This document shows, piece by piece, positions 15,043-49,624 of a stretch of DNA of 50,768 bases (positions are counted from its first letter, which is position 1; each line of letters opens with the position of its first letter). The notes beneath the pieces were generated by a model, which worked only from the letters and a program-made list of their open reading frames with translations, made no database searches and was not told where the DNA came from. The translations under genes were made by a program, and so were the position numbers. The stretch is from sequence record NC_101820.1. One strand, 5' to 3'. The DNA is from a phage.

Positions 15043-15238
15043 ATATGCAACAGATAAAACTGGAACATGGGAGATTTCATTAGGAGGAGAATACGCATCA
15101 ATTTCGCCAAGTGGTGACACGGCGCAAGTAACGCCATCAAGCAATGGTGATGTATATGTAAACTGGGTGGCAAATGACGGATCTGGTGTATCTGACACAT
15201 TTATCATCAACTTTGTAGATCCAGAGCCTGGCCCTTAA
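15032..15238 (+). other. start-less open frame (about 68 codons) with Ig-like sequence character; candidate +1 frameshift extension
   Basis: Frame +1 relative to 14446..15042 is open from 15032 to TAA at 15236-15238 with no ATG, GTG or TTG near its 5' end; translation ...TGTWEISLGGEYASISPSGDTAQVTPSSNGDVYVNWVANDGSGVSDTFIINFVDPEPGP. Confidence 0.35.
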
Positions 15239-15256
15239 CATAAAAACATCTTGCAC

Positions 15257-15274
15257 GTTTAACAAAAAGTGCTA
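15257..15274 (-). promoter_or_regulatory. conserved motif, inverted, in the leader of the major capsid gene
   Basis: GTTTAACAAAAAGTGCTA on the plus strand about 45 nt upstream of the ATG; followed by hairpin GGCCGTT/AACGGCC. Confidence 0.4.
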
Positions 15275-15319
15275 TCATCTAGGCCGTTACATTTAACGGC
15301 CTTTTATGGAGGAAACAAA

Positions 15320-16288
15320 ATGGCTAAAAAATATGATGAACTAGATGCTACGATTGTAGCAAATCATTTACAGGTTCAGGGCGTTAAGGGTGATGCTTCT
15401 GATATGGGTATTTGGACCGCTCAAGAGCTACACAAGATCCGCTCAACGGCATACGAGAAAGAGTATCCGGCAGGTTCCGCACTTCGCGTATTCCCTGTAA
15501 CAAACGAGCTTTCTGATACTGATAAGACTTTTGAGTATCAGACTTTTGATAAGGTTGGCTACGCGAAAATTATCGCCGACTACACCGACGATCTGCCGAC
15601 CGTGGACGCGCTGATGACTTCTGAATTTGGCAAGGTGTTCCGCCTGGGTAACGCTTTTCTGATCTCCATTGATGAGATTAAAGCAGGTCAGCGAACTGGC
15701 AAGAGCCTGTCAACTCGCAAGGCTAACGCTGCGCAAAATGCGCATGATCAGTTGATTAACTTCCTGGTGTTCAAAGGTTCCAAGCCTCATAAGATCGTTT
15801 CCGTTTTCGATCACCCTAACCTTACGAAAATTGCTTCTAAAGGATGGATGAGCCAGGATGGAAACACCAAGTCCCCTGATGTGGCAAGCGATGAACTGGA
15901 GGCTGCAATCGAGACTATCGAGGAAGTAACAAAAGGTCAGCACCGCGCGACTAACATCCTGATCCCGCCGTCCATGCGTAAAGTCTTGACGGTTCGAATG
16001 GAAAATACCACTGAAAGTTATCTTGAATACTTCCAGAAGCAAAACGGCGGAATCACTATCGACTCTATCGCAGAGCTTGAGGATATTGACGGCAAAGGTA
16101 TGAAAGGTTGCTTGGTTTACGAAAAAGATCCAATGAACATGAGCATTGAGATTCCAGAAGCGTTTAACATGCTTCCGGCGCAGCCAAAAGACCTTCACTT
16201 CAAGGTTCCTTGCACTTCCAAGTGTACTGGCCTTACGATTTACCGTCCGTTTACGATGGTGCTTATTACTGACCTTGAAAAAGGCTGA
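15320..16288 (+). CDS. major capsid protein
   Basis: 322 aa; ATG 15320 after GGAGG; position between scaffold/decoration genes and head-tail joining genes. Confidence 0.65.
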   Translation: MAKKYDELDATIVANHLQVQGVKGDASDMGIWTAQELHKIRSTAYEKEYPAGSALRVFPVTNELSDTDKTFEYQTFDKVGYAKIIADYTDDLPTVDALMTSEFGKVFRLGNAFLISIDEIKAGQRTGKSLSTRKANAAQNAHDQLINFLVFKGSKPHKIVSVFDHPNLTKIASKGWMSQDGNTKSPDVASDELEAAIETIEEVTKGQHRATNILIPPSMRKVLTVRMENTTESYLEYFQKQNGGITIDSIAELEDIDGKGMKGCLVYEKDPMNMSIEIPEAFNMLPAQPKDLHFKVPCTSKCTGLTIYRPFTMVLITDLEKG

Positions 16289-16303
16289 GTAATTAGATAA
16301 CAT

Positions 16304-16331
16304 GGGGAGCCTTAATGGTTCCCCTTTTTTT
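16304..16331 (+). terminator. intrinsic terminator
   Basis: GGGGAGCC ttaat GGTTCCCC followed by TTTTTTT. Confidence 0.65.
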
Positions 16332-16349
16332 ATTTATGGAGCACACAAA

Positions 16350-16616
16350 ATGAGCAAAAATTTAAAACTTAAAGTAACTGGCGTTTGCATGATTGTCATG
16401 GACGGCAAGCGTTATCATCCTGGTGATGAGATTGAAATTGAATCTGATCGCATTAATGATTCCGCAATTGAATACCTGATCGCTCGCGGCGATATGGAAG
16501 TTAAAGACAATTCCGAAATTAACGAGCAAATCAAGGAGAAAGCGGAGAAGAAGCGCAAAAAAGATCCTACCGAGGGCAAGAGCCGAAAAGAGCTAGAGGA
16601 TGGCGGCGAATATTAA
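16350..16616 (+). CDS. hypothetical structural-module protein (88 aa)
   Basis: ATG 16350 after GGAG; charged K/E-rich C-terminus. Confidence 0.5.
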
Positions 16617-16662
16617 TAATTGGGGCGCTTATGCGCCCCTTGTCATATCTGGAGAAAACAAA

Positions 16663-17082
16663 ATGGTAGATGAATTTTACACAGACGCTGAAATCGTTCA
16701 GCAAATCGTAAAGTTGGCCCCACCAATGCAGCAGGTTGATCCCGATTTAATTGTGGCATGGATTGAGCTTGCTAAAGAATTTGTTTGCAAAAAACGGTTT
16801 AAAAACTCATACCCGAAAGCGGTTGCGCTTTACACTCTTCACCTTATGACCTTAGACGGGGCAATGAAACAGGAAGGTGAAAGCGTAGAAAGCTATTCCC
16901 GCCGCGTTGCATCGTTCACTCTGACTGGTGAGTTTAGTCAGACGTTTGATCGAATTTCTTCCGATACAAGCGGAAAGCAGATCCGACAAACGCCGTGGGG
17001 CAAAATGTACGAAGTGTTAAACCGTAAGCACGGTGGCGGCTTTGGACTTGTAACTGGATTGCGCCGGAGATGTTGCCGATGA
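16663..17082 (+). CDS. head-tail adaptor / connector-like protein
   Basis: 139 aa; ATG 16663 after GGAG; position after the capsid gene. Confidence 0.45.
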
Positions 17083-17453
17083 ATTACAATGAGATTGCAA
17101 GAATGGCTACTGCTGGGATTAACTTTTTCAGCGACGCTAACGGTATGTTTAAGTGCATCACGCAGCAGGGAGGGGTTGATATTATCGGCGGAGAGGAAGT
17201 TACCAAGCCTGAGATTTCAGTGATGATAAAGGGGCTTGTTAGATCTCCGAGGACTAGAGAGGTTGACGGTGAAACGATCCGAGTAACCGACAAGTTGGGG
17301 GTATTCACCAATGAAACTGAGATCAAAAATGGTTATCAGATTGAAATTGATGGCGATCGTTATGTTGTCGTTGAAGCAAGACCAGTCAGACAGACTAACA
17401 TCACGGCAGCTTATCGTCCGATATTAAGGAGGATTGCAGTGCATGGCGGATAA
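17079..17453 (+). CDS. head-tail joining protein (putative)
   Basis: 124 aa; overlaps neighbours by a few nt, typical of the connector gene cluster. Confidence 0.45.
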
Positions 17454-17886
17454 TTATAAGATCAGGGAATTTCACGGTGATATAAGCAGGTGGATTGATT
17501 CAGTAAGCAGCGGCCTTGTTGATTGCGTTGAAATGTTCGCGACAAACGTCCACGAGGATCTTGTAAAGCGTTCGCCAGTTGATACGGGCCGATATAAAGC
17601 TAACTGGCAGGTAACAGCAAACAAGCCGCCGCTATATGCTCTCAATCAATACGATCGCGATGGTAGTAAAACCATTGCAGAAGGCAAGCGAGCAATATAT
17701 GCAATCATGCGGGGCGGTGGAGCGGTGCGGTCAATCTATTTTTCAAACATGCTTATTTACGCCAATGCGCTTGAATACGGGCATTCAAAACAAGCGCCGT
17801 CCGGCGTGCTGGGAATCGTGGCGGTAAAGCTGCGATCCTATATGACTAAGGCAATAAAGGATTCGAGGGCAAAAAATGCACTATGA
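17443..17886 (+). CDS. tail completion protein (HK97 gp10-like)
   Basis: 147 aa; VDTGRYKANW pattern and position before the tail terminator and major tail genes. Confidence 0.5.
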   Translation: MADNYKIREFHGDISRWIDSVSSGLVDCVEMFATNVHEDLVKRSPVDTGRYKANWQVTANKPPLYALNQYDRDGSKTIAEGKRAIYAIMRGGGAVRSIYFSNMLIYANALEYGHSKQAPSGVLGIVAVKLRSYMTKAIKDSRAKNAL

Positions 17887-18277
17887 TTTAATGTTAGCGG
17901 CAAGAAAGGCGCTGGCGGCGGAATATGAATCACGATTCAAGATCGCCTATGAAAACGTTGATTTTGTTCCGCCTGGTGATGGTTCGATGTGGTTAAAATT
18001 TGACTACATGGAAGCCGACACAGATCGCATATCTCTTGATAGAAAATGCGTTTCTTATATCGGATTGGTTCAGGTTGGAATTGTTATGCCTCCTGGCGGC
18101 GGCACTGATAAAGCGCGTTTGCTGGCTAAAGAGATTGCGAGATTTTTCTATGATGGTAGAATGTTTGAAACTGGCTATATTAGCGATGGGGCAAATGTCC
18201 ACACATTACTAAAAAGTGAAACAGGTTGGTTCTTACCGATCCGTTTCAGTGTTAGGCTTGACACAAAGGAGGAATAA
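17876..18277 (+). CDS. tail terminator-like protein
   Basis: 133 aa immediately upstream of the major tail protein gene. Confidence 0.45.
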   Translation: MHYDLMLAARKALAAEYESRFKIAYENVDFVPPGDGSMWLKFDYMEADTDRISLDRKCVSYIGLVQVGIVMPPGGGTDKARLLAKEIARFFYDGRMFETGYISDGANVHTLLKSETGWFLPIRFSVRLDTKEE

Positions 18278-32989: not shown

Positions 32990-33021
32990 ACAAAAAGCCC
33001 CGCATATGCGGGGCATTTTTT
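32990..33021. terminator. bidirectional terminator
   Basis: Perfect palindrome GCCCCGCATATGCGGGGC flanked by A-run and T-run, between convergent genes. Confidence 0.7.
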
Positions 33022-33699
33022 AGTCTAACGTGGTTGGTTTGTTTACCAGTGCCGCTACAACCGCTTTTAGCTCGTCAATTTCTTTTCTCATCTCATCGTT
33101 TTCCGCTTTCAGTTTCTTAACGTGGTGAATCAGTGGAACAGTGAGGCGGTCATACATAACGCCTTCCGCTACCATGCCATTACTTGAAGCAATGGCAGGA
33201 TCTTCTCCTTCTTGCAGCGGTCGCCAGTGAACGTACTCCGGCGCAATTTCTCCAACCTCTTCCGCGATTAGCCCGTACCATCCCCAATCTTTACGGTCGC
33301 TTTCACAAGTTGACCGATACACACAGGACGCATTTCAAGCATCAGATCCGCATATTCATCAATAACCGATTCTACGCTGCGCTTATAACGAGAAGAGGAA
33401 GTGGAGCGTAAAACTTGCGACACTCCAGCATTTGGATCAAGCCATAAGTTTGCTGATTGAGCGGTTGTGTTAAGATTAAATAAATAAAATGCATCGTTAC
33501 CAGTTAGTGGGTAAAAACTCCCACTATACCTTCCGCTACCCAACTCGGATGATAGATCAGTTTGTTTTAGATACAGCTTCAACTTATTGTCAACATCAGT
33601 AGTTGATGCTTTTCCTGCAACATCCTGTTTTAGTGTCGAAACATCACTTTTCAGCTTCGTTATATCACCAGGAATATTAGTAACTGTAGCCATTTTCAT
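33020..33699 (-). CDS. tail-fibre-like protein with C-terminal S74-type intramolecular chaperone domain, interrupted by a frameshift
   Basis: Track ORFs 33268..33699 and 33020..33322 overlap in different frames; the chaperone-like sequence continues across the shift at the TGTGTGT run (about 33319-33326). Confidence 0.5.
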
Positions 33700-33705
33700 A
33701 ACTCC

Positions 33706-33984
33706 TTAAGCCCATTCTCTAATCGGCTGATCCAACTCAACAACATAATCATTAAAAATTACGGAATCAAACTTATTATCAATGATTCGAACATTGACAA
33801 AATAACCGTCGTTCTTTTGTGCAATCTCATCGCCATCGTCAGATCGTGCAACTACTGTGTAAGTAGTACCGATTACATCGAGCAGGATTGCATTCTGAAT
33901 ATTTTCGTTTTCTTTCCATTCGATTTTTTCAATAAAGGCGGAAAACTCCGCCTTGTCTACAAATTTCAGTGTTAAATCACGCAT
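33706..33984 (-). CDS. hypothetical protein (92 aa)
   Basis: Start refined to ATG 33984 (TAATG overlap with the tail fibre stop); in frame with track ORF 33706..34029. Confidence 0.5.
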   Translation of the reverse strand: MRDLTLKFVDKAEFSAFIEKIEWKENENIQNAILLDVIGTTYTVVARSDDGDEIAQKNDGYFVNVRIIDNKFDSVIFNDYVVELDQPIREWA

Positions 33985-35978
33985 TATACAATTTCCCCCA
34001 TTTGGTGATCTGTTAGTGTCTTGTGCCATATGCGGAAGTTTCTTAAGTGTCCGAAAAAGTGACGAGCACCATCAGATCCTGCGCCACCGAATCTTATTAT
34101 CTTACTGGTTGTTGGCTTAAAACCATGCTTAACCTCTGCTTTGTTCCCTTTTACGGAATTTGAAAAGATATACGCATAACTCCCGTCGTATACTCCGCCA
34201 ACTGTTATTGCTCCCTGAGCAGAATCATAATTATTCTTTATTTCAGTGGAAATGTATACGGTTGGTGACTCGCCATATCTAGCAATATTCCAGTATGTTG
34301 AATGTTTATCGCTTCTTATTGAGCATACCATTGACTCGCCAACATCAGGCGCACCAATATCCCATATCCTCGGCGCTGAATTTGGTAAGGTAGTCCATGT
34401 TTTATTTACCTCAAGCAAAAAACTAAGCGGGTGAGATATTAAATTATTAAATGACACGACATTAACTAAGTCACTAACCCTTGTCGCAGGAGTTCCCTCT
34501 GTGACGATAAATGACGACGAGCACGCACCACCTTCCACTTGAGGTGTTGAGATGTATATGTAATCATTAACTTCTGTGCTTCCTCCTTTTCGCGGGGCAT
34601 ATTGCACCATTGCACCAATCATGCTTTCCTGTTCTAATGCTGTGATCGTAGCCTCAAAAAATATCCATTTGCTTGACTCATCCATTACCGCTCTTGCTGT
34701 TATCCTGTTTGCAGCGCCGCCGGTTTTTTCTATTGACAAATCCTCAAGACCGAGATAAGCACCACCTAGAAAGGTATATTCGCTATCATTATAACTTCCA
34801 AATCCAAGTCTGCATCTTATGTTTCCTTCACCACCCTTGACTCTGCATGAGATTGTTACTCTTTTTTCTTCACCAGTAACATCAAAACCCTTATTACCAG
34901 ATACTGTAACTATGTTAATAGCCGATGTTTGCCCTACCATTTCTGGATTTAATGTAAACTTGCCAAATGAAAAACCGAAATCATCAACTCCTGATTGGCT
35001 TAACACCATGTTTGATGACTTGTTCCATTTTGAAGGATTGGTACTATTTATGAGAAGGTTTGTTCTCTGCCCCTCAATTAGCAAGCCTTCACGTTCAAAA
35101 CGCGGTTCGTCAAAGTCAGCATCAGTAAGAAATCCCGACTTATTAATGTATGTCGCCTTTGATGCTCGCTTAAAATTTACAACTTTATCTGACGGCATAT
35201 TGATCACATCATCACCAACTTTTATCTTTTTATACCCAGGCGCAAAACCAGTTATCATATCAAGTGAATCATTAAACGGTATCCACACGTCCGGCAACGG
35301 TTGCAATAAATCTTTGTAAGGTTCTGCGGCCTGCTTTGCGTATTCCTCCGCTTGATCTCGCGCACTTTCAGCTCCTGCCTTTGCAGTGTTCGCAGCGTCA
35401 CGCGCGGATTCAGCGCCAGACTTTGCTGTTTCAGCTCCAGTCTTTGCAGTGTTTGCAGCGTCGCGCGCGGATTCAGCGGCAGCCTTTGCAGTATCAGCAC
35501 CTTTCTTGCTATTCGCTGCATTTGTTGCGCTTGTCTTCGCGTTATTCTCGCTGGTTTTAGCTGCCTGCTGGCTTGCTGATGCTGCATCAGCATTTGTCTT
35601 TACGTCTTCCTGGATCTTCTGTAGCTTATCCCAATCAAAATCCTTGATGATCTCAATAAATCCAGCAAACTCCGATTCCTTCCCCTGGTAATAACGCAGC
35701 GTTTCCGCTACGTCTTGCGCAAGACCGTCAACCGTTAACGAGTCATGAAGCAAGATCAGGTAATTTGTCTTCTGTACTACCGCGCCGCCAGTAGTAATTG
35801 CGCGAATGCTTGTATCGCTAATCACTTCCGTAATCACAGCAGCTTGCAAAGGTTGAGAAAGAAAGAAAATAGTTGCACCTGGGCGAATCAAGGTTAATTG
35901 CTCACGCCATTTTGTACCGTAACCAGTTACATAACCTTGCGCGTCCATAGACGCTTGGCCTTGTCTGTAAATCGCCAT
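33984..35978 (-). CDS. side tail fibre protein
   Basis: About 665 aa; A/K/T/S-rich repeats (AKTSATNAANSKKGADTAKAAAESARDAANTAK...) and a C-terminal globular domain; start refined to ATG 35978 after AGGAGG. Confidence 0.75.
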   Translation of the reverse strand: MAIYRQGQASMDAQGYVTGYGTKWREQLTLIRPGATIFFLSQPLQAAVITEVISDTSIRAITTGGAVVQKTNYLILLHDSLTVDGLAQDVAETLRYYQGKESEFAGFIEIIKDFDWDKLQKIQEDVKTNADAASASQQAAKTSENNAKTSATNAANSKKGADTAKAAAESARDAANTAKTGAETAKSGAESARDAANTAKAGAESARDQAEEYAKQAAEPYKDLLQPLPDVWIPFNDSLDMITGFAPGYKKIKVGDDVINMPSDKVVNFKRASKATYINKSGFLTDADFDEPRFEREGLLIEGQRTNLLINSTNPSKWNKSSNMVLSQSGVDDFGFSFGKFTLNPEMVGQTSAINIVTVSGNKGFDVTGEEKRVTISCRVKGGEGNIRCRLGFGSYNDSEYTFLGGAYLGLEDLSIEKTGGAANRITARAVMDESSKWIFFEATITALEQESMIGAMVQYAPRKGGSTEVNDYIYISTPQVEGGACSSSFIVTEGTPATRVSDLVNVVSFNNLISHPLSFLLEVNKTWTTLPNSAPRIWDIGAPDVGESMVCSIRSDKHSTYWNIARYGESPTVYISTEIKNNYDSAQGAITVGGVYDGSYAYIFSNSVKGNKAEVKHGFKPTTSKIIRFGGAGSDGARHFFGHLRNFRIWHKTLTDHQMGEIV

Positions 35979-46761: not shown

Positions 46762-47144
46762 AGATATTTGCCCTCAAACAGATAACATCCGCCAGCAGAG
46801 AATCCGACCTCTTCACGGTACAGGTTCCAGCGGTCGCCGCACTCATCAAAAACATAACCCGCAACGCTTCCAAGCGGTCGCCCTTTCTCGATCTGGTATC
46901 GCTTGCCCTGCTTAAAGTGCTTTTTGCACGGCATGTTATGATCTACAAACGTGCAAAGAACGGTTTTTGTGTTAATGACGCGGTAATCATCTCGGTTTGC
47001 TGGAAGCCAACGGCTACCCTTAACAAGCGTCTTAACCTGGAACTCTTCCAACTCGATCACATCATTACTTCCTGCAATCTTCTGATAAACCGTTTTAAAA
47101 CGGCCTTTCATCAATACGTTGGTTTCATTACAGATAACATTCAT
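46758..47144 (-). CDS. hypothetical protein (128 aa)
   Basis: Track ORF; ATG 47144 preceded by AAAGGAG. Confidence 0.55.
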   Translation of the reverse strand: MNVICNETNVLMKGRFKTVYQKIAGSNDVIELEEFQVKTLVKGSRWLPANRDDYRVINTKTVLCTFVDHNMPCKKHFKQGKRYQIEKGRPLGSVAGYVFDECGDRWNLYREEVGFSAGGCYLFEGKYL

Positions 47145-47197
47145 GATTAGATCTCCTTTGTTTGTTCGATGTGATTATGCCAGGTTTTTACACCTGG

Positions 47198-47216
47198 CTT
47201 TTAACAAAAAGTGCTA
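47198..47216 (-). promoter_or_regulatory. conserved 19-nt motif with GCCAGGTG/CACCTGGC hairpin and CATAAT at offset +37
   Basis: Minus strand TAGCACTTTTTGTTAAAAG then hairpin then CATAAT, CACATCGAAC, RBS and ATG 47144. Confidence 0.5.
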
Positions 47217-47930
47217 TTTTGAGTTTGACTCAAATACGGCGCGAGCAAAGCCGCGCGGAGTGAGGGAGCGGATCATCTTTGTGCGCGATGACTTGCCGCC
47301 AGTTTTGGCCCAGCCTGGATTATCTTTGTCTTCCTCTTTCGGCAGGATTAAAGCGCGTGGAGGAATAACAAAGCCATTGCCAGTCCAGAGGCACGTTTTC
47401 TTAAAGTAGCGATCCCGCGCCGGAATAATATCAGGGAAGTCGGGATGTTTATCATCTTCCGGCAGATAGCCAGCGTAATCGCACGGATGGAACGTATAAT
47501 CAGGTTTTCGCCATAACGTTGACAACTTGCCAACCGGATTTTCGATCATGTAAGGAACACCGAAATAATCAGCTATATCATCCGCGATTCTGCAAGTGTC
47601 GGCGGCCTCATCCTGGAACGATGGATTCTCAAGGCGTTTTTTGGCCCAATGGCGAGATCCGCTATTTGCAAGGTCGGTGCAAGGAGGGAACGCCATAATA
47701 AAATCAGGATTGCCCCACTCATTATTGATTGCCTTAACATAAAAAGCATCATCAATCCAGACGTTAACGTATTCGATATTCTCATGCTGTATGCGCACTG
47801 ACTGGTAATCACCGTGATCGCCGCCGTCAGCATTAAAGCAAATGCACTTATAGCCATTATCAGCCCAATCTTTAACGGCTTTACCAGATCCATCAAATAG
47901 GGAGAATATTAAACCTTTATACATCGTCAT
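47214..47930 (-). CDS. C5-cytosine methyltransferase-like protein
   Basis: Motif I-like IFSLFDGSG, motif IV-like FPPCTDLANSG (catalytic Cys) and motif VI-like MIENPVG; start refined to ATG 47930. Confidence 0.55.
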   Translation of the reverse strand: MTMYKGLIFSLFDGSGKAVKDWADNGYKCICFNADGGDHGDYQSVRIQHENIEYVNVWIDDAFYVKAINNEWGNPDFIMAFPPCTDLANSGSRHWAKKRLENPSFQDEAADTCRIADDIADYFGVPYMIENPVGKLSTLWRKPDYTFHPCDYAGYLPEDDKHPDFPDIIPARDRYFKKTCLWTGNGFVIPPRALILPKEEDKDNPGWAKTGGKSSRTKMIRSLTPRGFARAVFESNSK

Positions 47931-47934
47931 TACC

Positions 47935-48159
47935 TCAAAACGGAAAACAGCGCGGACAACCAGGATCGAAATCGCATCCACAATCATTAACAATCATAGT
48001 TGGATCTGCAAATATTGCGCTTGATTCAAGATCCATATCCATATCACCTAAAGCCTCATCAAGACTCTTAATTTTATATGCCACTTCAAGCGCCGCCTCT
48101 TTATTTAGTCCGGCATCTTCTGCCATTTGAAGGCGCTCAAAAAATCCGTCTTGACTCAT
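47935..48159 (-). CDS. hypothetical protein with C-terminal Cys cluster (74 aa)
   Basis: Track ORF; C-terminus CGCDFDPGCPRCFPF. Confidence 0.5.
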   Translation of the reverse strand: MSQDGFFERLQMAEDAGLNKEAALEVAYKIKSLDEALGDMDMDLESSAIFADPTMIVNDCGCDFDPGCPRCFPF

Positions 48160-48272
48160 CGCATAATCCCCTTAATAACAGCCAAGATAATAGCCAGGCC
48201 AGCAGCAGTAACCAAAAAGCCAACCGCGCCAATAATCGAATAAAAAAAGAAATCAATAGCCTTATCTATCAT
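48156..48272 (-). CDS. small hydrophobic peptide (38 aa)
   Basis: Not in track; ATG 48272 after GAGGTGG and a hairpin; MIDKAIDFFFYSIIGAVGFLVTAAGLAIILAVIKGIMR; stop overlaps the next start. Confidence 0.35.
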   Translation of the reverse strand: MIDKAIDFFFYSIIGAVGFLVTAAGLAIILAVIKGIMR

Positions 48273-48314
48273 TTTCCACCTCATTTAAAAGGCGGCAAAA
48301 CGCCGCCATATTAA

Positions 48315-48542
48315 TTAAAGAGCACGCCAACTTTGAATATAGAAAGCGTTTTCTTCCAGTAATTCTTTTAACTGATCTTTATTGTATTTGCGCACCTTAC
48401 CGCCTGGATGGATACCAATAAGATATCCGCCTTTGCCCTCGGTGATAGTGATTTGGCTAATTCCGCAAGACTTATCAAGTTTTACAGCCACGCGGTGATG
48501 AGCGTCAATAGTTGCCATAATGTTTAAAACTTTTGCTTTCAT
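48315..48542 (-). CDS. hypothetical protein (75 aa)
   Basis: Track ORF. Confidence 0.5.
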   Translation of the reverse strand: MKAKVLNIMATIDAHHRVAVKLDKSCGISQITITEGKGGYLIGIHPGGKVRKYNKDQLKELLEENAFYIQSWRAL

Positions 48543-48650
48543 TTAAATATCCTCAATTGAAATATGAATGGCGTCGTGCTCTTTTTCCGTCGCCGCCGTA
48601 ATGGTCATTTGCAGCCGATACCATCAAGGCATTTTTGAAAATAAATAGCC

Positions 48651-48863
48651 TCATTTCTTATTTTTCATCTTAAATTTATGGCCTGGAACACCAGCACCAA
48701 TATAGCCATCGTTGTATTCCATTAAATAAAGGTGAAGGCCATTATCTGAAATTACATGAGGATCTTCTTTGAGATTTCCCATTAGTGGATATTCTTTTTC
48801 GCGCGTAAATCTCCAAGTTGAGTTATAAGTTTCTACGCATTTAAGTTTTAATTGCTTTGCCAT
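48651..48863 (-). CDS. small protein (70 aa), member of the four-copy family
   Basis: LKCVETYNS...DNGLHLYLMEYNDG resembles 2429..2650 and 2647..2892. Confidence 0.5.
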   Translation of the reverse strand: MAKQLKLKCVETYNSTWRFTREKEYPLMGNLKEDPHVISDNGLHLYLMEYNDGYIGAGVPGHKFKMKNKK

Positions 48864-49060
48864 TAGATGATCTCCATGTATGTTTCAAAGCCATTTAACT
48901 TGAACAGGCCGTTTTCACATTTGCGAACGTTCCAAGTTAGCCCTGAGTGGTACGCCTCCATATCATCAAGGTCAATGGTGATTTCAGCACCTTTCTTAAA
49001 CAAACATTTTTCGTGAGACTTGTCGCGCTTAACAACTTTAACATCAACCTGATTTTCCAT
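48863..49060 (-). CDS. small protein (65 aa), member of the four-copy family
   Basis: KCLFKKG...GLFKLNGFET pattern; leader ACAACAAACGAGGATTTAAAG nearly identical to that of plus-strand gene 3882. Confidence 0.5.
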   Translation of the reverse strand: MENQVDVKVVKRDKSHEKCLFKKGAEITIDLDDMEAYHSGLTWNVRKCENGLFKLNGFETYMEII

Positions 49061-49114
49061 CTTTAAATCCTCGTTTGTTGTCGATGCGCTTACTATACCA
49101 ATCAGCAGCGCATC

Positions 49115-49134
49115 GTTTTTAACAAAAAGTGCTA
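49115..49134 (-). promoter_or_regulatory. conserved 19-nt motif with 8-bp hairpin GATGCGCT/AGCGCATC enclosing TATAGT
   Basis: Minus strand TAAATAGCACTTTTTGTTAAAAAC; TATAGT at offset +37 in the hairpin loop. Confidence 0.5.
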
Positions 49135-49135
49135 T

Positions 49136-49399
49136 TTAGTCCAGGAATTCGATTTCACGCTCTCCAGTTAACGGATTCACAAGCCAGAATCCGAGCGGTT
49201 CGCCGTGAACACCGCCATAGAATCCAAGAGCCGTCAGATCTTCACCTTTAACGAATACCAGGTTTCCGCTACGGCTTACGTGAGACACGTTAACGATAAC
49301 CGGAAATGTGCGATCCTTAAATGCAGGCCGCAGGGCGTAACATCCGTTATTGAGCAAACGTGCTTTGCGCTTAACTGGAATAGGTGCATTAATTTTCAT
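49136..49399 (-). CDS. hypothetical protein (87 aa)
   Basis: Track ORF; its TAA stop lies within the TAAATAG of the motif. Confidence 0.55.
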   Translation of the reverse strand: MKINAPIPVKRKARLLNNGCYALRPAFKDRTFPVIVNVSHVSRSGNLVFVKGEDLTALGFYGGVHGEPLGFWLVNPLTGEREIEFLD

Positions 49400-49411
49400 G
49401 GTTATTACTCC

Positions 49412-49624
49412 TTATCGTAAAGATTTAAAGACGTATAGTTTATTGCGGTAACTATATATCCGCATTGTTATTTCTCGCAGCGCAATATATTCCTTCCTGT
49501 TTTCCGGCATCCTGGCGAGCAATAACAGACAGTATTTATAAGCGCGGTCAAGATTCCTTTCCGTGCCCCTGCAATATCCCTTATTGCGCCTGGAGCGGTA
49601 CAGCCATAACAATTTCTTGAACAT
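49412..49624 (-). CDS. small basic protein (70 aa)
   Basis: ATG 49624 after GGGAGGA; in frame with track ORF 49412..49810; R/K-rich. Confidence 0.45.
   Translation of the reverse strand: MFKKLLWLYRSRRNKGYCRGTERNLDRAYKYCLLLLARMPENRKEYIALREITMRIYSYRNKLYVFKSLR

What the first reader, a model, noticed from the sequence alone, without database searches (positions are those of the whole stretch)
33020..33699. Tail fibre intramolecular chaperone (S74-like) domain split by a frameshift at a TG repeat
The minus-strand ORF 33268..33699 ends with ...SSRYKRSVESVIDEYADLMLEMRPV, which resembles the start of the self-cleaving chaperone domain of phage fibres and endosialidases. The overlapping ORF 33020..33322, in another frame and lacking an ATG, continues the same pattern (...DRKDWGWYGLIAEEVGEIAPEYVHW...GVMYDRLTVPLIHHVKKLKAENDEMRKEIDELK). 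The break lies at the dinucleotide run TGTGTGT (plus strand about 33319-33326), where removing one TG would restore a single frame. This is either a slipped-strand (phase-variable) site, a recent inactivating mutation, a sequencing or assembly error, or a site of programmed frameshifting.
Basis: partly seen in the sequence, partly recalled or inferred. Interest (0 to 1): 0.6.

Follow-up and report, generated by a model that had tools for sequence, protein, structure and literature searches.

The report
Broken small tail-fibre gene in T1-like phage
A small tail-fibre gene of this T1-like coliphage is cut in two by the loss of one base in an invariant tryptophan codon, which is ordinary gene inactivation, except that the same gene is independently broken in about 40% of sequenced relatives.

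Summary
Minus-strand ORFs 33268..33699 and 33020..33322 are two halves of one gene. Its intact form is 224 aa in the 99%-identical Escherichia phage tonn (Warwickvirus, Drexlerviridae). That protein has a short N-terminal coiled coil, a small fibre tip and a C-terminal Peptidase_S74 self-cleaving chaperone domain.

The break is not TG-repeat slippage. The window lacks one G of the TGG codon for Trp125 (relatives read CCTGTGTGGTAT or CCTGTTTGGTAT), and the TG run is partly a by-product of that loss. Deleting a TG would restore the frame but remove a Trp that is invariant in 32 homologues. There is no slippery heptamer, and relatives are in one frame, so programmed frameshifting and phase variation are not supported.

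The most likely reading is a recent inactivating mutation. A consensus error cannot be excluded without reads.

Beyond the finding, 13 of 34 public Warwickvirus genomes carry other lesions in this same gene, at 10 distinct sites and from at least 12 independent events. These include nonsense substitutions. The three-times-longer lateral tail fibre gene next door is never broken. Intact alleles evolve under purifying selection (dN/dS about 0.2). This resembles the lambda PaPa stf frameshift, but recurs across many isolates.

The parts
33020..33693 (-). Whole disrupted gene. It is the orthologue of tonn_60 (224 aa when repaired): coiled coil, small fibre tip and S74 intramolecular chaperone. The stop codon TAA is at 33022..33020.
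   Evidence: One substitution plus the 1-nt gap separate it from tonn across the gene. The conserved start ATGGCTACAG is shared by all relatives.
33268..33693 (-). Upstream reading frame (141 aa from the conserved ATG, 143 aa from the ATG at 33699). It covers residues 1-124 of the true protein plus 17 out-of-frame residues and a stop.
33020..33319 (-). Downstream segment in the -1 frame, encoding residues 126-224 (most of the chaperone domain and its C-terminal helix). No Shine-Dalgarno-like sequence is seen before the GTG at 33322.
33320..33321 (-). Remnant (TG) of the Trp125 codon TGG. One G is missing here, corresponding to one C of CC on the plus strand. This is the frameshift point.
   Evidence: Alignments to tonn, KMB46, tinuso, JK16 and JLBYU01; BLAST gap at window position 33321; Trp invariant in 32 homologues.
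33319..33325 (-). It is partly created by the deletion: relatives read TGTGTGG or TGTTTGG.
33382..33405 (-). STSSSRYK motif (residues 97-104). This is the conserved start of the chaperone domain and the presumed autocleavage site.
   Evidence: T, S, Y and K are invariant or nearly so in 32 homologues. The Pfam S74 match starts at residue 99 in MATV numbering. Cleavage itself is inferred, not shown.
33559..33672 (-). N-terminal coiled-coil stalk (about residues 8-45). Relatives carry one extra 21-aa or 7-aa repeat here.
   Evidence: Helices in the model, weak sub-threshold Pfam leucine-zipper and coiled-coil hits in the N-terminal stalk, repeat-number differences.
32992..33014 (-). GC-rich hairpin (GCCCCGCATATGCGGGGC) plus a T run, directly after the stop. 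It looks like a terminator shared with the convergent ssDNA-binding protein gene.
   Evidence: Read from the sequence; conserved in relatives. No terminator scan was run.
33706..33984 (-). Context: 92-aa protein of unknown function (phrog_1361) between the lateral tail fibre gene and the broken gene. It is intact.
33984..35978 (-). Context: lateral tail fibre gene (664 aa) with a weak, sub-threshold Pfam Laminin_G_3 (concanavalin-like) match at its C-terminus. It is intact here and in all Warwickvirus records examined.

Best explanation
One gene, encoding a small trimeric fibre component, has been inactivated by loss of a single G in the codon for Trp125. The protein consists of an N-terminal coiled coil, a tip of about 50 residues and a C-terminal S74-type intramolecular chaperone that would normally fold the trimer and then cut itself off.

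Translation from the ATG at 33693 now leaves the frame after Val124 and stops 17 codons later. The product keeps the stalk and tip but only about 25 of the roughly 125 chaperone residues. By inference it cannot fold or assemble, and the virion lacks this component. The main lateral tail fibre gene stays intact.

The gene is dispensable for plaque formation on the isolation host. Its loss is one case of a recurrent pattern of independent knock-outs of this gene among sequenced Warwickvirus isolates. This is comparable to the stf frameshift of laboratory lambda.

Shown: the deletion, the domain identity, the pattern in relatives, and purifying selection on intact alleles. Inferred: loss of function of the truncated product, the fibre role, and why loss is tolerated or favoured.
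For: - **Deletion:** it is a single base missing relative to tonn, which is 99.1% identical genome-wide, and relative to all other relatives.
- **Trp125:** invariant in 32 homologues.
- **Domain identity:** supported by Pfam, by the conserved motifs, and by the fold. The chaperone part of the AF2 model has block-mean pLDDT 82-96 over about residues 131-240. The best PDB matches are the MyRF ICA domain 7dc3 (E=1e-4), followed much more weakly by the phage intramolecular chaperones 3gud and 3gw6 (E about 0.2 and above, TM 0.2-0.5).
- **Fibre role:** the protein matches the C-terminal ends of 1000-1385-aa tail-fibre PHROGs. In a related uncultivated genome, the same locus encodes one 1195-aa lateral tail fibre whose last ~200 aa are 67% identical to this protein.
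- **Other indels against tonn:** this is the only ORF-breaking indel in about 45 kb aligned. The other four unpaired indels are in intergenic homopolymers.
- **Lesions in relatives:** 13 of 34 public genomes carry 10 different lesions in this gene. Five genomes carry nonsense substitutions, at four distinct sites. Shared lesions sit on different haplotypes.
- **Control gene:** the 2-kb lateral tail fibre gene is unbroken in all records. Fisher P=6e-5. The probability that all 10 lesions fall in the small gene by length share is 1e-6.
- **Purifying selection:** intact alleles have median dN/dS of 0.21.
- **Precedent for non-essential side fibres:** PMC8594841, PMC12617516.
Against: - No reads are available, so a consensus error at this one base cannot be excluded.
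- The exact truncated protein and the exact DNA string were not found in other public assemblies, so this allele is seen only once.
- Loss of function of the truncated product is inferred, not tested.
- Two of the relatives' lesions (JLBYU01, SECphi27) remove only the C-terminal helix and might be leaky.
- Lesions also occur in phages isolated on wild E. coli hosts (AV105, EC195, KMB46). A simple adaptation to O-antigen-less K-12 therefore does not explain everything.
Confidence: 0.7

Rival explanations
1. Sequencing or assembly error: the phage really has TGG and an intact 224-aa gene, and one base was dropped in the consensus.
For: It is a single-base difference from a 99%-identical relative. 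This allele was not found anywhere else.
Against: The site is a GG dinucleotide, not a long homopolymer. The rest of the genome shows no other ORF-breaking indel against tonn, and the remaining indels sit in intergenic runs, as expected for real, selection-filtered differences. The same gene is demonstrably broken in many independent records, including by nonsense substitutions that indel-type errors cannot produce.
Confidence: 0.2
2. Phase-variable (contingency) site: slipped-strand mispairing at the TG run or a nearby repeat switches the fibre gene on and off in the phage population.
For: A preprint reports abundant hypermutable simple repeats in phages and the highest density in Warwickvirus (PMC12633550). 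Three relatives carry +C in a C5 run of this same gene.
Against: (TG)3T is very short and is not present in relatives, which read TGTGTGG or TGTTTGG. No relative varies in length at this site. Loss of a TG unit would delete invariant Trp125. True reversion needs a +G insertion. Most lesions in relatives are not at repeats, and five genomes carry nonsense substitutions.
Confidence: 0.04
3. Programmed -1 ribosomal frameshift joins the two frames to make the full protein.
For: The downstream frame is -1 relative to the upstream one, and the two frames overlap by 67 nt.
Against: There is no X_XXY_YYZ heptamer anywhere in the gene. All 17 intact relatives encode the protein in one frame, and the two-frame layout is unique to this window at this position. 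The shift point destroys an invariant codon.
Confidence: 0.02
4. Two independent, separately expressed proteins: a short fibre and a free-standing chaperone acting in trans.
For: One BASEL record annotates the intact homologue as 'putative lateral tail fiber chaperone'. Some records annotate two CDSs.
Against: The split falls inside the S74 domain, not between domains. No Shine-Dalgarno-like sequence precedes the GTG at 33322. Split points differ from genome to genome, and intact alleles are under purifying selection as one ORF.
Confidence: 0.02

Closest known systems
Lambda PaPa stf frameshift (Hendrix & Duda 1992, as summarised in PMC12617516)
   Same: A single frameshift mutation (a one-base deletion, from my own recollection of Hendrix & Duda 1992; the paper read here says only 'frameshift') splits an accessory side-fibre gene of a siphophage into two ORFs. 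The phage still plates normally because the central fibre and receptor-binding protein carry out the essential step. The lesion is carried in the reference genome of a laboratory stock.
   Different: In lambda the main side-fibre gene itself is hit, and it is one historical event. Here the main lateral tail fibre gene is always intact. A small downstream gene bearing a chaperone domain is hit instead, repeatedly and independently, in many isolates.
C-terminal intramolecular chaperone domains (Peptidase_S74): endosialidase K1F and GA-1 neck appendage (PDB 3gw6, 3gud), T5 L-shaped tail fibre pb1 (Garcia-Doval 2015, cited in PMC11990801)
   Same: The conserved S-x-R-Y-K start motif, the GLIAEEV core and the long C-terminal helix are present, and the domain sits at the C-terminus of a fibre. 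The Pfam match and the fold match agree.
   Different: The mature part is only about 100 residues (coiled coil plus a small tip), against hundreds to more than a thousand in the known cases. Autocleavage and trimer formation were not tested here.
Drexlerviridae and Dhillonvirus fibres with an N-terminal coiled coil, T5-like tip and IMC (JakobBernoulli Gp36, RuthEpting Gp29; PMC11990801)
   Same: Same domain order in the same phage family and the same locus. That paper also notes one phage (AidaStucki) with a truncated IMC.
   Different: Homology to those particular proteins was not tested here. The window's protein is much shorter and sits downstream of a separate 664-aa lateral tail fibre and a 92-aa protein.
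Phage contingency loci (preprint PMC12633550)
   Same: Frameshifts that switch phage genes off. Warwickvirus is reported there as rich in simple repeats. A C5 run in this gene is hit in three relatives.
   Different: The window's site is not a repeat of 6 or more bases, is not conserved as a repeat, and shows no length variation among relatives.

Membership tests
Peptidase_S74 / intramolecular chaperone (IMC) domain | Match to Pfam PF13884 at or above the gathering score | tested here: met
   The repaired window protein scores 21.8 bits against a cutoff of 22, just below, over model positions 1-57 of 58. The 98%-identical P0001 scores 22.5 bits. 30 of 32 homologues hit, best E=8e-9.
Peptidase_S74 / intramolecular chaperone (IMC) domain | Conserved Ser...R-x-K start motif (cleavage site) and conserved core | tested here: met
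   STSS-RYK, RPVWYRS, D..DW and YGLIAEEV are invariant or nearly invariant in 32 homologues.
Peptidase_S74 / intramolecular chaperone (IMC) domain | Fold like solved IMC/ICA domains | tested here: met
   The AF2 model has block-mean pLDDT 82-96 over about residues 131-240. Foldseek against PDB gives the MyRF ICA domain 7dc3 (E=1e-4, prob 1.0). The phage chaperones 3gud and 3gw6 follow much more weakly, with E about 0.2 and above. PDB sequence searches gave nothing significant.
Peptidase_S74 / intramolecular chaperone (IMC) domain | Located at the C-terminus of a trimeric fibre or spike | tested here: met
   The domain is C-terminal. The homologous region ends a 1195-aa lateral tail fibre in L027 and aligns to the C-terminal ends of long tail-fibre PHROGs. 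The trimeric state was not tested.
Peptidase_S74 / intramolecular chaperone (IMC) domain | Autoproteolytic release after trimer folding | not testable with these tools
   Needs protein expression and mass spectrometry or SDS-PAGE.
Programmed -1 ribosomal frameshift | Slippery heptamer X_XXY_YYZ in the overlap of the two frames | tested here: not met
   None anywhere in the gene; the overlap is 67 nt.
Programmed -1 ribosomal frameshift | Two-frame arrangement conserved in relatives | tested here: not met
   17 relatives encode a single ORF, and no other genome is split at this position.
Contingency locus / phase-variable simple repeat | A repeat tract conserved among relatives that varies in unit number | tested here: not met
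   Relatives read TGTGTGG or TGTTTGG, and none varies in length at this site.
Contingency locus / phase-variable simple repeat | Gain or loss of a repeat unit gives a functional ON form | tested here: not met
   Loss of a TG restores the frame but removes invariant Trp125. Function of such a form was not tested.
Laboratory or isolation-associated loss of an accessory side fibre (lambda stf type) | Small lesion breaking an accessory fibre gene while the essential receptor-binding apparatus is intact | tested here: met
   There is a single-base deletion. No other ORF-breaking indel is seen against tonn, and the lateral tail fibre gene is intact.
Laboratory or isolation-associated loss of an accessory side fibre (lambda stf type) | The lesion arose or was selected during isolation or passage, and the gene is dispensable on the host used | not testable with these tools
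   Only indirect support. Each broken allele has one lesion on an otherwise conserved background. Intact alleles are under purifying selection. The two close uncultivated copies are intact.

The most novel reading that the evidence does not exclude
Loss of this small chaperone-bearing fibre gene is not neutral decay. It is positively selected whenever Warwickvirus phages are enriched and plaque-purified.

The grounds are at least 12 independent knock-outs in about 40% of isolates, the identical TAC>TAA nonsense arising twice on different haplotypes, +C at the same C5 run at least twice, and zero hits in the three-times-larger neighbouring fibre gene.

Possible reasons are that the fibre slows spread in plaques by sticking to cells or debris, or that its product (for example the released chaperone fragment) is sensed by a host defence system and escape mutants lose it.
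Probability: 0.3. Interest if true: 0.6.

Novelty: new member of a known kind. Interest (0 to 1): 0.4.

Why it matters
Taken alone, the finding is a pseudogene call. The two ORFs should be annotated as one disrupted tail-fibre gene, not as two proteins and not as a frameshifting or phase-variation site.

The wider pattern matters for anyone using these phages. Roughly four in ten deposited Warwickvirus genomes, and presumably the stocks behind them, lack a conserved fibre component that wild phages maintain under purifying selection. Host-range, adsorption and therapy-related data from such isolates may therefore not reflect the natural virion.

The pattern also gives a ready-made set of natural knock-outs and intact near-isogenic relatives (for example this phage against tonn). 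These could be used to find out what short fibres made of a coiled coil, a tip and an IMC do. Homologous ~230-aa proteins are also common in E. coli genome assemblies: two clusters hold about 2,900 and 650 member sequences. They are presumably prophage-borne.

Tried and rejected
- **Exact-sequence look-up of the 143-aa truncated product in public assemblies:** nothing on record.
- **Exact 33-nt string across the lesion in IMG/VR:** no match. I could not show this allele in a second sample.
- **PDB sequence searches with the protein and with a 32-sequence profile:** only insignificant hits. The fold search was needed instead.
- **IMG/VR and metagenome scans for uncultivated copies:** only four usable loci. 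This is too few to compare lesion frequency in nature with that in isolates.
- **TG-repeat slippage, programmed -1 frameshifting and two-separate-genes readings:** rejected for the reasons given under the rival explanations.
- **A pure K-12 (no O-antigen) adaptation story:** weakened, because broken alleles also occur in phages isolated on ECOR, ESBL and clinical hosts (PMC9583813 abstract).
- **The J Virol 2023 paper on Warwickvirus FhuA phages:** no mention of lateral fibres, chaperones or frameshifts.
- **AF2 monomer model:** it gave no usable structure for the N-terminal stalk and tip (pLDDT below 50), so the tip fold is unknown.

Full report
**What the window is.** The region is 99.8% identical to Escherichia phage tonn. 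The whole window aligns to tonn at about 99% over roughly 45 kb. Tonn belongs to Drexlerviridae, Tempevirinae, Warwickvirus, and is a T1-like siphophage. The finding lies at the end of the lateral tail fibre locus. On the minus strand this locus reads: lateral tail fibre gene (33984..35978, 664 aa), a 92-aa gene (33706..33984), the gene in question, and then a hairpin shared with the convergent ssDNA-binding protein gene.

**Checking the observation.** Both ORFs exist as described. In tonn the same DNA is one 675-nt CDS, tonn_60, encoding 224 aa. Alignments show that the window lacks exactly one base. Tonn and KMB46 read CCT GTG TGG TAT CGG (P V W Y R). Tinuso, JK16 and JLBYU01 read CCT GTT TGG TAT. 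The window reads CCTGTGTGTATCGG. The missing base is a G of the Trp125 codon, leaving TG at 33321..33320.

The TGTGTGT run (33325..33319) is therefore partly a product of the deletion and not an ancestral repeat. Removing a TG would restore the frame arithmetically, but it would delete Trp125, which is invariant in an alignment of 32 homologues down to 31% identity. The conserved start codon is the ATG at 33693. The ATG at 33699 is AGG in most relatives.

**Domain identity.**
- Neither half hits Peptidase_S74 alone. The repaired protein does: E=2.3e-4, 21.8 bits against a cutoff of 22, model positions 1-57 of 58, spanning the break.
- The 98%-identical intact homologue P0001 scores 22.5 bits, and 30 of 32 homologues hit the family.
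- The hallmark motifs (STSS-RYK, RPVWYRS, YGLIAEEV) are conserved.
- An AlphaFold2 model of P0001 is confident for the chaperone part (block-mean pLDDT 82-96 over about residues 131-240) and poor for the N-terminal 126 residues.
- Foldseek against the PDB returns the MyRF ICA domain (7dc3, E=1e-4). The phage intramolecular chaperones 3gud and 3gw6 follow much more weakly, with E about 0.2 and above. PDB sequence searches were uninformative.

**What the protein is.**
- It matches the C-terminal ends of 1000-1385-aa tail-fibre PHROG families.
- In an uncultivated Warwickvirus-like genome (L027) with the same flanking genes, the locus encodes a single 1195-aa lateral tail fibre. That fibre has the same N-terminal anchor as the window's fibre, and its last ~200 aa are 67% identical to this protein.
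- Standalone homologues of about 230 aa are common in E. coli genome assemblies, presumably in prophages. Two clusters have about 2,900 and 650 members.
- The BASEL papers describe Drexlerviridae fibres with an N-terminal coiled coil, a T5-like tip and a C-terminal IMC. They argue that lateral fibres of this family probably bind O-antigen glycans without being essential (PMC11990801, PMC8594841).

I therefore read the protein as a short trimeric fibre component (coiled-coil stalk, small tip, self-cleaving chaperone) that works with or beside the lateral tail fibre. That role is inferred, not shown.

**Mechanism of the break.**
- *Programmed -1 frameshifting:* the downstream frame is -1 and the frames overlap by 67 nt. 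However, the gene has no X_XXY_YYZ heptamer, and 17 relatives encode one frame. This reading is not supported.
- *Phase variation at the TG run:* the run is absent from relatives, and no length variation occurs there. This reading is not supported.
- *Sequencing error:* this cannot be excluded without reads. Against it, the other four unpaired indels against tonn all lie in intergenic homopolymers, and this is the only ORF-breaking one in about 45 kb. That is the pattern of real, selection-filtered differences. The site is also only a GG dinucleotide.

**The unexpected part.** I inspected the gene in 29 public Warwickvirus genomes at sequence or annotation level. tblastn coverage and annotation for the remaining five (EC125, ExeQuayColi, MartyMcPhage, JLBYU38, WaterSpirit) bring the total to 34. 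Seventeen of the inspected genomes are intact, at 224, 231 or 245 aa. The length differences come from a 21-aa or 7-aa coiled-coil repeat.

Thirteen genomes are broken, by ten different lesions at ten different places:

| Genome(s) | Lesion |
|---|---|
| KMB46 | Out-of-frame repeat rearrangement (50-nt duplication relative to tonn) |
| brachmannus | Loss of an A in an A4 run |
| JLBYU19, orkinos, AV105 | +C in a C5 run |
| JLBYU10 | +CC |
| Phunderstruck | GGA>TGA |
| tuinn | GAG>TAG |
| EC195, EC125, JLBYU07 | TAC>TAA |
| JLBYU01 | GAA>TAA |
| SECphi27 | Loss of an A near the 3' end |

The shared lesions sit on clearly different local haplotypes, so there were at least 12 independent events. 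Nonsense substitutions cannot be indel-type sequencing errors.

By contrast, the adjacent 2-kb lateral tail fibre gene is a single full-length tblastn match in every Warwickvirus record. Fisher's test for 13/34 against 0/34 gives P=6e-5. The chance that all 10 lesions fall in the small gene by length share is 1e-6.

Intact alleles show purifying selection, with median pairwise dN/dS of 0.21 overall and 0.13 in the chaperone part. Each broken allele carries one lesion on an otherwise conserved background. The two close uncultivated copies found are intact. The gene is thus maintained in nature but lost again and again in cultured isolates, or in very recent lineages.

By my own rough estimate, neutral drift during a few rounds of plaque purification is far too slow to break a 0.7-kb gene in 40% of isolates. 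Selection for loss, or pre-existing polymorphism, is needed. The data here cannot distinguish between these two.

**Comparison with known cases.** The closest precedent is laboratory lambda (PaPa), in which a frameshift in stf abolishes the side fibres without affecting plating (PMC12617516). T5 lateral fibres are likewise dispensable on rough K-12 (same paper; PMC8594841). The differences here are that the main fibre gene is spared, that the target is a small chaperone-bearing gene, and that the loss recurs across many isolates, including some obtained on wild hosts. A recent preprint on phage contingency loci reports the highest simple-repeat density in Warwickvirus (PMC12633550). This may explain the C5-run hits in relatives, but not the window's lesion.

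**Verdict.** The S74 assignment is confirmed. The proposed TG-repeat mechanism is not. The feature is most likely a recent inactivating single-base deletion (about 0.7), less likely a consensus error (about 0.2). On its own it is ordinary. The recurrent, gene-specific inactivation across the genus is a modestly interesting observation, and I found no mention of it in the papers I read.

Noticed in passing
window 33020..33693 and loci L002-L024 (alignment): The same small fibre gene is independently broken in 13 of 34 public Warwickvirus genomes, by 10 different lesions. The neighbouring 2-kb lateral tail fibre gene is never broken.
   Followed up: yes
L013 (EC195) and L014 (JLBYU07); L008/L010 (JLBYU19, orkinos) and L009 (AV105): Identical lesions recur on different local haplotypes: TAC>TAA at the same Tyr codon, and +C at the same C5 run. 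This means either parallel mutation or very short gene-conversion tracts.
   Followed up: partly
L003, L012, L013, L014, L016: All nonsense lesions seen in this gene are G:C>T:A transversions (GAA>TAA, GAG>TAG, GGA>TGA, and TAC>TAA twice). None is a C>T or G>A transition at a Gln or Trp codon. Numbers are small and this is unexplained.
   Followed up: no
window about 33559..33672; L002, L003, L021, L022, L019: The N-terminal coiled coil varies by whole repeats among relatives. There is one 63-nt (21-aa) unit in the window and tonn, two in tunus, XY3 and SLUR29, and an extra 7 aa in the PeterMerian group. KMB46 has an out-of-frame 50-nt duplication of the same unit.
   Followed up: partly
L027 91..3678 (IMGVR_UViG_3300045988_025133): In an uncultivated relative the whole locus is one 1195-aa lateral tail fibre ending in the same tip and chaperone module. 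The window's three-gene layout therefore looks like the result of a cassette exchange that left the tip and chaperone as a separate small gene.
   Followed up: partly
window 33984..35978: The lateral tail fibre protein is only 58-75% identical among most Warwickvirus genomes that share a 91-100% identical small fibre gene. Its C-terminal ~470 aa are shared with T5-like phages, JenP1 and lambdoid phage 21. It has a weak, sub-threshold Laminin_G_3 hit at the C-terminus and an Ala/Lys-rich internal repeat annotated in tonn.
   Followed up: no
window 30377, 42891, 42898, 48275: Homopolymer length differences against tonn (A6/A7, T9/T8, T7/T6, T4/T3), all in intergenic regions.
   Followed up: partly
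window 15236..17887: This stretch is only about 77% identical to tonn, against 99% elsewhere. It corresponds to tonn 46919..49577, which covers head and connector genes including the major capsid protein. It looks like a mosaic replacement.
   Followed up: no
window 33693..33699: An extra in-frame ATG two codons upstream of the conserved start exists only in the tonn-like group and is AGG in most relatives. ORF callers may therefore pick a start two codons too early.
   Followed up: yes
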